Origin: Candidatus Latescibacterota bacterium
Lineage (GTDB): Bacteria > Latescibacterota > UBA2968
Length of the DNA stretch: 64,000 bases
Direction: 5' to 3'
Assembly (NCBI GenBank): GCA_965205975.1
Contig: OZ242195.1
Coordinates: 1,696,001 to 1,760,000 of the forward strand
Each line of letters opens with the position of its first letter. Positions within the stretch are counted from its first letter, which is position 1. This document shows positions 33,301 through 36,081 of the stretch, piece after piece. Position numbers and translations under genes: made by a program. The notes beneath the pieces were generated by a model. The model was not told the origin of the DNA. It did not search any database and saw only the letters and a program-made list of their open reading frames with translations.

Positions 33301-34494
33301 TCAGACTGCGTCAAGTGCCCGTCCAACATCGGCAATAATATCCTCGGCGTCTTCAATGCCCACGGCATAGCGCACCAACTCATCGGCAATGCCAATTGCC
33401 AATCGGTCTTCGCGTGCCAATTCGTAATATGAAATAGATGCAGGATGCGAAACAAGACTCTCCACACCTCCCAGGCTGGCCCCTATACACGGAATTCGCA
33501 AGCGATCAATAAAACCCAGCGTACCTGCCTCATCAGCATCTAAATCAAAACTCACCAGCCCACCAAATCCACGCATCTGCGCTTTGGCAACACCGTGGTG
33601 TGGGTGGCTTTCCAAACCGGGATAATACACGCGCTTTACCCGATCGTGCTTTTCCAAAAACCGCGCTAACATTAGCGCCGTTTCATTTTGCTTACCCATT
33701 CGCAGTGGAAAAGTCTTGATCCCCCGGATCAGCAAATAAGCGCAATGAGGATCAATCACCCCTCCCAAGATACCTCGATAGTCTCGAATCGCACCAACCA
33801 GAGGCGCGTTGCCCAGCACAGCACCAGCCATCAAATCGTTGTGCCCCCCCAAATACTTGGTCGCCGAATGAATGACCAGATCGACGCCAAATTCGAGCGG
33901 GCGCTGGTTTAAGGGCGTAGCAAATGTGCTGTCAATAATTGTCTTGACCCGATGCCTTTTTCCAATATCAACCAGTTTTTCCAGATCGATCACATTGAGA
34001 TGGGGATTTGTCGGAGATTCGGAAATAATCACGCGCGTGGTGTCCCGAATCGCACCTTCCAATTCGGCGTAATCACCCGCGTGAACAAATGTGGTTTCAA
34101 TGCTAAATTTTTTTAACACCATCTGGCAAAATTGCGCGGTTTTGCGATAGCAATCATCCATAATCACCGCGTGGTGCCCGGTTGAGAGCATGCCCAGTAG
34201 CGTAGTCGTCACAGCACTCATACCCGAGGAAAATAAAATAGCGGCCTCTGCGCCTTCCAGTTCTGCCAGCTTGGATTCTGCTGCATGCTGTGTCGGATTG
34301 CCATAGCGTCCGTAGTCAATCTGTGGGTTTTTGCCCGCCACAAATGCCTTAACAGCATGTGTATCTTCAAATACATAAGTCGATGTTTGCGCAATGGGCA
34401 CTGTCAGAGAATTTCCCCAGTGTCCCCTTTCTTCACCTGCATGTACAGCCCGTGTCCCCGAACAGGGCCCGTGCGTTTCGCACTTTTCAGACAT
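33301..34494 (-). CDS. metB: Cystathionine gamma-synthase (PLP, Cys/Met metabolism family), plant-type
   Basis: YGRYGNPT, SSGMSA, DCYRKT, ESPTNP, HSATKYLGGHND, SLGGVES; SAM riboswitch upstream. Confidence 0.85.
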   Translation of the reverse strand: MSEKCETHGPCSGTRAVHAGEERGHWGNSLTVPIAQTSTYVFEDTHAVKAFVAGKNPQIDYGRYGNPTQHAAESKLAELEGAEAAILFSSGMSAVTTTLLGMLSTGHHAVIMDDCYRKTAQFCQMVLKKFSIETTFVHAGDYAELEGAIRDTTRVIISESPTNPHLNVIDLEKLVDIGKRHRVKTIIDSTFATPLNQRPLEFGVDLVIHSATKYLGGHNDLMAGAVLGNAPLVGAIRDYRGILGGVIDPHCAYLLIRGIKTFPLRMGKQNETALMLARFLEKHDRVKRVYYPGLESHPHHGVAKAQMRGFGGLVSFDLDADEAGTLGFIDRLRIPCIGASLGGVESLVSHPASISYYELAREDRLAIGIADELVRYAVGIEDAEDIIADVGRALDAV

Positions 34495-34505
34495 GCGCCA
34501 TCTCC

Positions 34506-34533
34506 AAAAAAAGCGGAGCCACAAAAGCCCCGC
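34506..34533 (-). terminator. Second leader terminator of metB
   Basis: GCGGGGC-TTTTGTG-GCTCCGC-TTTTTTT abutting the GGAG RBS. Confidence 0.7.
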
Positions 34534-34542
34534 GCAGTACGC

Positions 34543-34571
34543 AAAAAAACCGGACTAAAAAGCCCGGTTTT
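34543..34571 (-). terminator. First leader terminator (riboswitch expression platform)
   Basis: AAAACCGGGC-TTTTTA-GTCCGGTTTTTTT. Confidence 0.8.
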
Positions 34572-34579
34572 GGGAATAA

Positions 34580-34630
34580 CTTTTTAGCGACTTGTTTAAA
34601 GTGGCTGCAATATGCCGCAAATCACCACTC
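34580..34630 (-). ncRNA. SAM-II (SAM-alpha-like) riboswitch aptamer
   Basis: GAGTGGTGATTTGCGGCATATTGCAGCCACTTTAAACAAGTCGCTAAAAAG matches the SAM-II pattern GTGGTGATTTG...TTGCAGCCAC..TAAACAAGTCGCTAAA; lies upstream of a Met synthesis gene. Confidence 0.85.
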
Positions 34631-34649
34631 GCCATAGCTGTATTTTGGG

Positions 34650-34678
34650 AATGTAACCAAAACCCTCAACCCTGTCAA
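34650..34678 (-). promoter_or_regulatory. Promoter of the metB leader
   Basis: TTGACA-17 bp-TACATT. Confidence 0.7.
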
Positions 34679-34733
34679 CTCCCGCATTGAGTATCTGATT
34701 TTATCTGCGTCCATCTGCGGATGCCTGTCAACT
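34671..34733. repeat. ATCTGCG mini-repeat element flanked by the 10-bp direct repeat cctgtcaact
   Basis: cctgtcaact at 34671-80 and 34724-33 enclosing ttatctgcgtccatctgcggatg. Confidence 0.7.
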
Positions 34734-36081
34734 ATCTGTTGGCTTCAATCCGGTCGAGAATCGCCTTTTTTACTGCATCGATTTCAGGGGGCAACACAAC
34801 GGGTTCATTGCGGTAATGCGGGCTTACCCCCCAATCCCGTAACTGATCCCGATGATATCCGAGCTTAAACTCACTAAACTTCAACCCGTGAGCCGTTGAA
34901 ATCACGATCACGCGATCGCTTTTCTGAATTACGCCCCTGTCAATCAACTTGAACAATACGGCGAAAGCCACCCCGGTGTGCGGGCATGCAAACAAGCCCG
35001 TACGGTCGGCACGCGCAGCCGCATCGGCCAATTCCTCCTCGCTGGCTTGTTCTACGACACCACCGAAGATTTTGAGCGTTTGAATCGCTTTTTCTCGACT
35101 CACCGGATTGCCGATCTGAATCGCACTGGCCAATGTCGGCTGTGCCTGAATCGGTTCAAAACTATCAAAATTCTTTTCAAAACTTCGGTAGAGAGGATTG
35201 GCCCTATCGGCCTGTGCAACCGCAATGCGCGGTAGTCGGTCAATTAGCCCAAGGGCTTCCATTTCGAGAAAGCCCTTGCCCAGCGCACTCACATTGCCCA
35301 GATTTCCGCCGGGAATCACAACCCAATCGGGCACTTCCCAATCAAATTGCTGCACCAATTCGATGCTGATTGTTTTTTGCCCCTCTACCCGCAGTGAATT
35401 CATCGAATTGGCCAAATAGATATTTTCCTCGCGGCAAATCTCCTGCACGAGCCTCATACATCCATCAAAGTCGGTCTCTAAACTCAGCACCAGCGCACCA
35501 TTGGCCAGGGGCTGCAAAAGTTGTGCAGTCGAAATCTTATCCCTCGGCAAAAAGACCACCGATTGTATGCCCGCCGCTGCACAATACGCAGCCAACGCCG
35601 CCGAGGTATCCCCAGTAGATGCACACGCAACCGCCGGAATACGCGTCCCTTCAAATAGCATCTGTTTCACCATGGATACCAGCACCGTCATGCCTAAATC
35701 TTTGAACGATCCCGTATGGCTGTTACCGCATTGCTTAACCCACAAATCCTCAACGCCAATTTCTCGCCCCAAACGCTCGGCCCAAAACAGATTACTACCC
35801 CCTTCGTACATCGACACCACATTGTTTTCGTGAACTACGGGGCAGACCAGTTCTTTTTTCCCCCATACAGAACTGCCATAAGGCCATGTGGTAGTCATAT
35901 AACGCTTATCAAATAACCCGCGCCAATAACTGCTCGACTTGCGTTTGAGCATCTCCATATCGTGCGCCACTTCGAGCAACCCTCCGCACGTTGGACACGC
36001 GTAAATCACATCCGTCAGCGCATATCGCCCTTCACACCCTTGAAAACACCGAAACCACGCATTATAAGTTGTATCGTCCAT
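34732..36081 (-). CDS. thrC: Threonine synthase, long plant-type
   Basis: [10 protein letters not shown] (PLP Lys), [40 protein letters not shown]-terminal CxxC motifs. Confidence 0.93.

What the first reader, a model, noticed from the sequence alone, without database searches (positions are those of the whole stretch)
34494..34678. SAM-II-like riboswitch wired for transcription termination, with tandem terminators
Seen: promoter, then a SAM-II-like aptamer, two U-tailed hairpins and metB. The aptamer 3' tail GCUAAAAAGUU is complementary over 11 bp (including G-U) to GGCUUUUUAGU in the first terminator. This gives an explicit antiterminator that would be unavailable when SAM locks the pseudoknot. 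The second terminator abuts the RBS and has no obvious partner, suggesting a second control layer. Established: SAM-II is best characterised in Proteobacteria, commonly acting on translation initiation. Inference: a transcriptional variant in a distant lineage.
Basis: partly seen in the sequence, partly recalled or inferred. Interest (0 to 1): 0.75.

Follow-up and report, generated by a model that had tools for sequence, protein, structure and literature searches.

The report
One SAM sensor, two transcription stops
An RNA matching a known class of SAM sensors sits before a likely methionine-synthesis gene of an uncultured bacterium, and its sensing strand is complementary to both of two predicted stop signals in a row, so one sensor likely gets two successive chances to shut the gene off.

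Summary
The aptamer is a SAM-II member: Rfam RF00521, 44 bits against a cut-off of 36, with covarying P1 and P2. It lies before a cystathionine gamma-synthase-like gene in a Ca. Latescibacterota genome. The 11-bp antiterminator with terminator 1 is real. The novelty claim fails: terminator-linked SAM-II was described in 2005, called its commonest predicted mode in 2007, and predicted for S. meliloti metZ. The same aptamer tail pairs with it (11 bp, one bulge). Terminators 1 and 2 rank 3rd and 6th of 608 terminator-like hairpins in the genome. Two terminators both complementary to the tail occur in 20 of 21 genus-mates and in two further genera, with weaker cases in two more. Likely mechanism: without SAM the tail blocks terminator 1, is released when that hairpin folds behind the polymerase, then blocks terminator 2; SAM frees both. 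SAM binding, termination and the hand-over are untested. My searches found no such single-aptamer serial gating in print. The scan noted single SAM-II antiterminators before on other DNA. Verdict: new variant of a known kind.

The parts
34732..36081 (-). Upstream gene: threonine synthase, plant-like
   Evidence: TIGR00260 222 bits over cut-off 167; best PDB match 1E5X, labelled chloroplastic threonine synthase 1, 554.7 bits against 183 for the next
34673..34725 (.). 53-nt polymorphic insertion between the thrC stop and the promoter, flanked by a short direct repeat and holding a dispersed repeat; not part of the switch
   Evidence: A contig of run X19 skips 53 nt here; 48 blastn-short hits in the genome, the self hit included; absent in several genus-mates such as L016, L018, L022
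34650..34678 (-). Sigma-70-type promoter (-35 at 34678-34673, -10 at 34655-34650); start site inferred near 34643
   Evidence: 10 of 12; scan not above chance; -35 seen by eye in 25 of 26 loci printed
34578..34630 (-). SAM-II aptamer core: P1 34629-34625 with 34604-34600; pseudoknot P2 34616-34607 with 34588-34578
   Evidence: RF00521 44 bits; 97.4% of 351 cells paired, 11 cells changed on both sides, 0 of 500 shuffles as high
34578..34588 (-). Switching strand: the 3' strand of P2 and predicted antiterminator strand for both T1 and T2
34543..34567 (-). Terminator-like hairpin T1 (34567-34550) and U tract (34549-34543); tail-complementary segment 34564-34554
   Evidence: not listed by the built-in scanner
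34506..34533 (-). Terminator-like hairpin T2 (34533-34513) and U tract (34512-34506); tail-complementary segment 34529-34518
34501..34505 (-). Shine-Dalgarno-like site, 6 nt of spacing before the start codon
   Evidence: sequence
33301..34494 (-). Controlled gene: Cys/Met-metabolism PLP enzyme, likely cystathionine gamma-synthase (397 aa)
   Evidence: relatives in other phyla carry SAM-I riboswitches in 11 of 60 loci scanned

Best explanation
[quoted passage not shown] Without SAM, the tail (34588-34578) would pair with the 5' arm and loop of T1 as they leave the polymerase, so the polymerase reads through. Once T1 is fully made, its own hairpin would fold behind the polymerase and release the tail. 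The tail can then pair with the 5' arm and loop of T2 and allow read-through again. With SAM bound, the tail is locked in the P2 pseudoknot, so T1, or for late binders and leaky read-through T2, would stop transcription. One aptamer would thus get two checkpoints, about 35 and 72 nt after the tail is made. SHOWN: family match, covariation of P1 and P2, two hairpins with U tracts, complementarity of the tail to both, conservation in relatives. INFERRED: SAM binding, termination, OFF logic, order of events and hand-over. Odds: transcriptional SAM OFF-switch about 0.85; both terminators gated by the tail about 0.55.
For: Family match over cut-off. All 11 tail positions lie in the P2 3' strand, and P2's outer pairs covary among 27 loci; P2 is the SAM-stabilised helix (PMC3303485, passages). 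Tail duplexes with T1 and T2 rank 3 and 6 of 608 (background mean -3.4, sd 1.4). Among 81 SAM-II hits from relatives, 73 have at least one terminator-like hairpin within 120 nt, and 63 have one whose duplex with its own tail is in the top 2% of 606 background hairpins, over spacers of 0-81 nt. Cognate tail/terminator pairs are more stable than permuted ones: -10.51 against -9.81 using the last terminator, 21 of 5000 permutations as low, n=29 genus-by-tail classes. Two hairpins in 30 of 81 hits; both in the top 2% in 23 (20 in genus g1, 2 in g9, 1 in g11). Genus g6 has a T2 of different sequence that still pairs with the tail (-10.3), with a weak T1 in 2 of 3 loci. On the enzyme tree, tandem loci fall in three separately supported clades, g1+g6, g9+g11 and g17. 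T2 sits +44 nt from the tail, close to the single tail-complementary terminator of genera g7, g8, g10 and g16 (+34 to +45). Unconstrained folds of the growing transcript give tail:T1 at 34554, T1 folded from 34551, part of the tail plus linker on T2's 5' arm around a folded T1 at 34521-34518, and T2 folded from 34515. Relatives of the gene in other phyla use SAM-I (11 of 60 loci).
Against: No binding, termination or transcript-end data; RNA-library contigs cannot show ends. At equilibrium both terminator hairpins win once fully made, so the switch must be kinetic. The folds are for one locus, cannot model the pseudoknot, and at the T2 stage break P1 with a 5'-flank helix that is not conserved, whereas probing of metX SAM-II shows P1 formed without ligand. 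T2's duplex is weaker and bulged. T1 and T2 share a core, so T2's complementarity could be inherited from a duplication. 20 of the 23 strong tandem cases are one genus. In 7 of 30 two-hairpin loci one hairpin misses the top 2% (near misses L148, L035; clear misses L032, L143, L156, and T1 of L007). One genus-mate (L002) has lost the T2 stem, and most genera have one terminator, so two are not required. Known dual or extra terminators behind riboswitches can be ligand-blind (Bc1 T2; S. meliloti metA). The background comes from one genome and a slightly stricter finder; kin are not independent in the permutation test; the deep forks of the tree are unresolved.
Confidence: 0.55

Rival explanations
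1. Only one hairpin is the real decision point. T2, at the distance used by single-terminator relatives, is the SAM-gated terminator, and T1 mainly acts as a pause or a temporary holder of the tail (or the reverse in some strains).
For: T2's position matches the single terminators of g7, g8, g10 and g16; T1 is weak in g6 (-5.9) and has a broken U tract in g9 and g11; T1 starts only 10 nt after the tail, leaving little time for SAM to bind (inference).
Against: In g1, T1 has a 7-bp stem, a 6-8 U tract and the better tail match in 21 of 21 loci; L002 keeps T1 alone.
Confidence: 0.2
2. T1 is the SAM-gated terminator, and T2 is a SAM-independent, leaky attenuator that lowers basal expression; its likeness to the tail's complement is left over from duplication of T1. 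This is closest to the first reader's 'second layer'.
For: Precedents for ligand-blind extra terminators: Bc1 T2 (PMC11218506) and S. meliloti metA (PMC9373788); T1 and T2 share a core; second hairpins without a tail match exist in L032, L143, L156.
Against: T2's stems have diverged from T1's while the tail match is kept through several loop variants in g1 and through a different sequence in g6; in g17 and L148 the second hairpin is often the better match; a constitutive -13.4 kcal/mol terminator with 7 U would nearly silence the gene (inference).
Confidence: 0.15
3. The second layer is translational: in read-through transcripts the linker between the tail and T1 pairs with the end of T2's U tract and the Shine-Dalgarno site.
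For: Such a helix appears in the unconstrained folds at 34503-34497; T2 ends one base before the Shine-Dalgarno site.
Against: The T2 hairpin does not contain the site; the linker is not conserved outside g1; no link to SAM occupancy is evident.
Confidence: 0.07
4. The aptamer does not respond to SAM in vivo, and the leader is a fixed attenuator.
For: No binding data; Bc1 is an example of a conserved riboswitch that did not respond in vivo.
Against: 26 invariant aptamer columns among 27 loci, covariation, conserved tail/terminator complementarity, and SAM-I on related genes.
Confidence: 0.03

Closest known systems
SAM-II riboswitch (Rfam RF00521 SAM_alpha; A. tumefaciens metA element, Corbino 2005, PMC1273637; S. 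meliloti metZ, Scheuer 2022, PMC9373788)
   Same: Aptamer over the family cut-off, P1 plus pseudoknot P2, promoter just before P1, intrinsic terminator between P2 and a methionine-pathway gene, predicted OFF logic.
   Different: Two terminators behind one aptamer, both complementary to the P2 3' strand; host lineage Ca. Latescibacterota. I could not see the metZ structure model (Fig. S1 not held) or Corbino's alignment files, which may show antiterminators or tandem terminators.
Bc1 c-di-GMP-I riboswitch with dual terminator (Bacillus cereus group; Liu 2024, PMC11218506)
   Same: One aptamer followed by two intrinsic terminators in one expression platform, the second near the start codon; the authors call this rarely seen.
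   Different: In Bc1, T2 stays folded with ligand and masks the response; no shared antiterminator strand is described in the parts I read. Here both hairpins match the same aptamer strand, with predicted OFF logic.
Pseudo-cooperative tandem riboswitches, including SAM-II/SAM-II and SAM-II/SAM-V (Sherlock 2022, PMC9481103)
   Same: Two successive SAM checkpoints on one leader, expected to tighten or sharpen repression.
   Different: Those use two aptamers, each with its own platform; here one aptamer would serve two terminators in turn.

Membership tests
SAM-II riboswitch (RF00521) | Covariance-model score above the gathering threshold | tested here: met
   44.0 bits against 36, whole model 1-79
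SAM-II riboswitch (RF00521) | P1 stem and P2 pseudoknot supported by covariation | tested here: met
   27 loci: P1 100% and P2 95.8% of cells paired; 4 of 13 pairs with changes on both sides; best slid control 54.4% paired. Related sequences inflate the shuffle control.
SAM-II riboswitch (RF00521) | Conserved SAM-pocket nucleotides (L1 uridines, P2b core) | tested here: met
   Match to the Rfam consensus at these places; invariant or nearly invariant in alignment A1; mapping to U10-U12, U20-U21, U44-A46 of PMC3303485 was done by eye
SAM-II riboswitch (RF00521) | Upstream of a methionine or SAM pathway gene | tested here: met
   Cys/Met PLP enzyme, best structure match cystathionine gamma-synthase; exact activity not established
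SAM-II riboswitch (RF00521) | Binds SAM and discriminates against SAH | not testable with these tools
   needs probing
SAM-V (RF01826) / SAM-II long loop (RF01726) | Covariance-model score above threshold | tested here: not met
   RF01726 20 of 44 bits; no SAM-V match at E<=5
Transcription-terminating (strand-exchange) riboswitch | Intrinsic terminator whose stem competes with an aptamer strand | tested here: met
   (sequence and computed energies only)
Transcription-terminating (strand-exchange) riboswitch | Ligand-dependent termination | not testable with these tools
   only contigs available, no RNA ends
Tandem (two-aptamer) riboswitch | Second aptamer in the leader | tested here: not met
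   one RF00521 match in the leader and in the genome; no SAM-I in the genome

The most novel reading that the evidence does not exclude
A single SAM-II aptamer controls two intrinsic terminators in series by handing its 3' strand from the first to the second during transcription. This gives tandem-riboswitch behaviour (a second chance to bind, lower leak) from one sensor, and the design arose or was kept separately in at least three Latescibacterota clades.
Probability: 0.5. Interest if true: 0.62.

Novelty: new variant of a known kind. Interest (0 to 1): 0.42.

Why it matters
Transcriptional riboswitches have only a short time to bind ligand, and known ways round this are pauses or a second aptamer. 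A second terminator blocked by the same aptamer strand would be a cheaper route. It would also be a natural case of a strand exchanged twice on one nascent RNA. The element is under 150 nt, and natural one- and two-terminator versions exist in close relatives, so it is directly testable in single-round transcription. It also gives an explicit, conserved antiterminator for SAM-II, whose transcriptional mechanism the 2007 survey called not experimentally established. The plain fact of a transcriptional SAM-II is not new.

Tried and rejected
1) Transcript ends: 7 RNA-library runs and 1 unlabelled run were laid, all as contigs. Gene-side contigs stopped at different places (34512, 34529, 34506, 34482) or ran through the leader (X1, X4, X5); no silent-stretch control was laid. 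No evidence for or against termination. 2) Further SAM-II copies in the genome behind other tail-complementary terminators: 6 other high-ranking background hairpins have no aptamer upstream by eye, and a motif scan found only this locus. 3) SAM-V, long-loop SAM-II, a second aptamer, SAM-I in the genome: none. 4) Promoter scan as evidence by itself: not above chance. 5) A 5'-flank helix seen in the folds: rejected as a conserved feature, because the flank differs among genus-mates. 6) The first permutation figure (0 of 5000, best hairpin per class) is biased by choosing the best hairpin; the last-terminator version (21 of 5000) is the one relied on. 7) Literature searches for a shared antiterminator on two terminators: 'riboswitch + tandem terminators + antiterminator' 1 paper, 'dual terminator' 3, 'two intrinsic terminators' 0, 'two terminators + expression platform' 3; only Bc1 is relevant among those opened, and three listed reviews were not opened. 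Subscription papers (for example the SAM-V discovery paper, seen only as cited in PMC9481103) were not searched. 8) Supplements: the metZ model figure and the 2005 alignments could not be read. 9) A SAM-bound versus free folding comparison across tandem loci was not obtained, so the hand-over rests on complementarity and on unconstrained folds of one locus.

Full report
Setting. The finding lies on the minus strand between a threonine synthase gene (stop at 34732; TIGR00260 over cut-off) and a 397-aa Cys/Met-metabolism PLP enzyme starting at 34494. That enzyme reaches no NCBIfam cut-off. Its best match among solved structures is a cystathionine gamma-synthase (383.5 bits, next 317). The closest public genomes with this protein (100% identity over the best segment, then 77-68%) are labelled Ca. 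Latescibacterota. Runs holding the stretch are mostly sponge metatranscriptomes.

The aptamer. Rfam places RF00521 (SAM_alpha, SAM-II) at 34638-34563, 44 bits against a cut-off of 36. SAM-II long-loop scores 20 of 44, and SAM-V is absent at E<=5. It is the only RF00521 match in the genome, and no SAM-I was found there. Relatives carry it widely: 57 of 61 genomes in the 'relatives' set and 60 of 151 in a phylum sample, with 0 of 36 in ten more distant families (incomplete genomes included, so this is 'not found', not 'absent'). An alignment of 27 hits chosen to span genera has 26 invariant columns. On it, P1 (5 pairs) and P2 (8 pairs, which I drew by hand) are 97.4% paired, with 11 cells changed on both sides; the best slid control is 54.4% paired. 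The tail 34588-34578 is the 3' strand of P2, the helix that SAM stabilises while P1 is preformed (PMC3303485, passages).

The platform. Two hairpins with 7-U tracts follow: T1 (34567-34550) and T2 (34533-34513). The built-in scanner lists only T2; my finder lists both. Among 608 terminator-like hairpins found genome-wide, T1 ranks 3rd and T2 6th for duplex energy with this tail (mean -3.4, sd 1.4). Six other high-ranking hairpins have no aptamer upstream.

Comparison across relatives. I fetched all 81 hits listed, sub-threshold ones included. 73 of 81 have at least one terminator-like hairpin within 120 nt of the tail, and 63 of 81 have one in the top 2% of the 606 background hairpins for their own tail. 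The spacer varies from 0 to 81 nt while the match is kept. The 8 without a hairpin include a contig end (L033), a second aptamer of a tandem pair (L034b), three sub-threshold g20 hits and two g10 loci, one of which shows a weak hairpin at a relaxed threshold. Where the tail changes, partners tend to follow: G-C in place of A-U at tail positions 7 and 8 in 5 and 4 of 40 rows, though these registers are chosen by the folding program. Cognate pairs beat permuted pairs (-10.51 against -9.81; 21 of 5000 permutations as low; n=29). Kin are not independent, so this is support and not a p-value.

Tandem terminators. 30 of 81 hits have two hairpins. Both are in the top 2% in 23: 20 of the 21 g1 loci, 2 in g9, 1 in g11. 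Seven are not: L148 and L035 just miss (16 and 14 of 606 background hairpins as good as their T1); L153 (T2, 37), L007 (T1, 88) and L156 (45 and 36) are weaker; L032 and L143 each have one unrelated hairpin. In g6, T2 has a different sequence and still pairs with the tail at -10.3, and a weak T1 (-5.9) is present in 2 of 3 loci. One g1 genome (L002) has lost the T2 stem. A tree of the downstream enzyme (29 of 54 usable rows; g1 and g7 thinned) puts tandem loci in three supported clades, g1+g6 (96/93), g9+g11 (98/96) and g17 (100/100), among single-terminator genera. The deep forks are open, so repeated gain and repeated loss cannot be told apart. T2's distance from the tail (+44) is close to that of the single terminator in g7, g8, g10 and g16 (+34 to +45), which argues that T2 is a regulated terminator and not an add-on.

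Folding during transcription. Unconstrained minimum-energy folds of the growing transcript (one locus) give P1 plus tail:T1 at 34554, the T1 hairpin from 34551, the 3' part of the tail and the linker on T2's 5' arm around a folded T1 at 34521-34518, and the T2 hairpin from 34515. This is the order that a hand-over needs. The limits are real. The program cannot form the pseudoknot. At the T2 stage it breaks P1 with a non-conserved 5'-flank helix. Both terminators win at equilibrium. A bound-versus-free comparison across loci was not obtained. RNA-library contigs gave no information on ends.

Mechanism. Most likely this is an OFF switch. Free tail blocks T1, is released when T1 folds behind the passing polymerase, and blocks T2. 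SAM locks the tail in P2, so transcription stops at T1, or at T2 if binding came late. I put the transcriptional OFF switch at about 0.85 and gating of both terminators at about 0.55. Rivals: one real decision point (0.2), ligand-blind T2 (0.15), translational second layer (0.07), no response (0.03). That relatives of this gene in other phyla sit behind SAM-I riboswitches (11 of 60 loci scanned out of 80 fetched; SAM-II in 2, both Latescibacterota) supports SAM as the signal.

What is known. Terminator-linked SAM-II is in print: PMC1273637 (abstract, passages, one supplement searched), PMC2258182 (passages), PMC9373788 (abstract, passages, supplement tables) and PMC9481103 (passages), which lists SAM-II with terminators in tandem two-aptamer systems. 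For one aptamer with two terminators the closest case is Bc1 (PMC11218506; abstract, outline and most of the discussion), where the authors call the layout rarely seen and T2 does not respond to ligand. Four searches found no description of one aptamer strand antiterminating two terminators. The library lacks most subscription papers, and unreadable supplements (the metZ model, the 2005 alignments) may bear on this. PMC5314783 and PMC4239095 were seen as passages only. Earlier notes of this scan report a single SAM-II antiterminator before metH (e1-5303867), SAM-II before threonine dehydrogenase (e1-9540808) and the plant-type gene pair (e1-5048234) on other DNA; they are unchecked leads, not support.

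Verdict. It is a SAM-II riboswitch in a phylum for which I found no report, with a two-terminator platform that is probably gated twice by one strand. New variant of a known kind; interest 0.42, or about 0.62 if the hand-over is shown.

Noticed in passing
L005, L006, L010 (tested); L116, L117, L139, L143, L147, L149, L150 (by N-terminal likeness only): In 10 of the 81 SAM-II hits, from 8 genera, the aptamer and a terminator precede a threonine 3-dehydrogenase-like gene. The three tested pass the NF003808 cut-off, and L005 continues into a glycine C-acetyltransferase start. This suggests SAM-repressed threonine breakdown towards glycine and one-carbon units (inference). Not in the passages of the 2014 proteobacterial regulon survey or in one paper search; the scan noted it before (e1-9540808). 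The window's genome has no close copy (best 31% identity).
   Followed up: partly
window 33301-36081 (-): Threonine synthase and the cystathionine gamma-synthase-like gene are neighbours, and both have plant-like best matches among solved structures (that 1QGN/1I41 is a plant enzyme is recalled). The riboswitch sits between them, so SAM would shut the methionine branch of a possible shared O-phosphohomoserine branch point. Lead from e1-5048234.
   Followed up: partly
window 34673-34725: A 53-nt polymorphic insertion with a short direct repeat and a roughly 20-27 nt element repeated dozens of times in the genome; it duplicates the -35 hexamer region.
   Followed up: partly
L034 (G103:C175:4777-5018): Two SAM-II aptamers in tandem, the first with a terminator and the second with a start codon 23 nt after its tail: a bi-mechanism pair of the kind described in PMC9481103.
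   Followed up: no
L155, L157, L158: Four near-identical sub-threshold SAM-II-like hits in genus g20 whose tail ends in a Shine-Dalgarno-like purine run and that lack terminators; possibly translational variants on a repeated element.
   Followed up: no
L010 versus L138, L140, L146: The terminator before the dehydrogenase gene in L010 and the first terminator before the synthase gene in g9 and g11 share the same hairpin and the same interrupted U tract, a hint that T1 was copied between the two riboswitch loci.
   Followed up: no
L046, L050, L061, L072-L074, L077, L084, L086, L087, L100: The same enzyme subfamily is under SAM-I riboswitches in Chloroflexota, a Myxococcales record and one unclassified record.
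   Followed up: no
window 34640-34654 and 34568-34577: A 10-nt direct repeat lies once over the -10 and start region and once in the linker between tail and T1; the linker copy varies among genus-mates, so probably chance.
   Followed up: no
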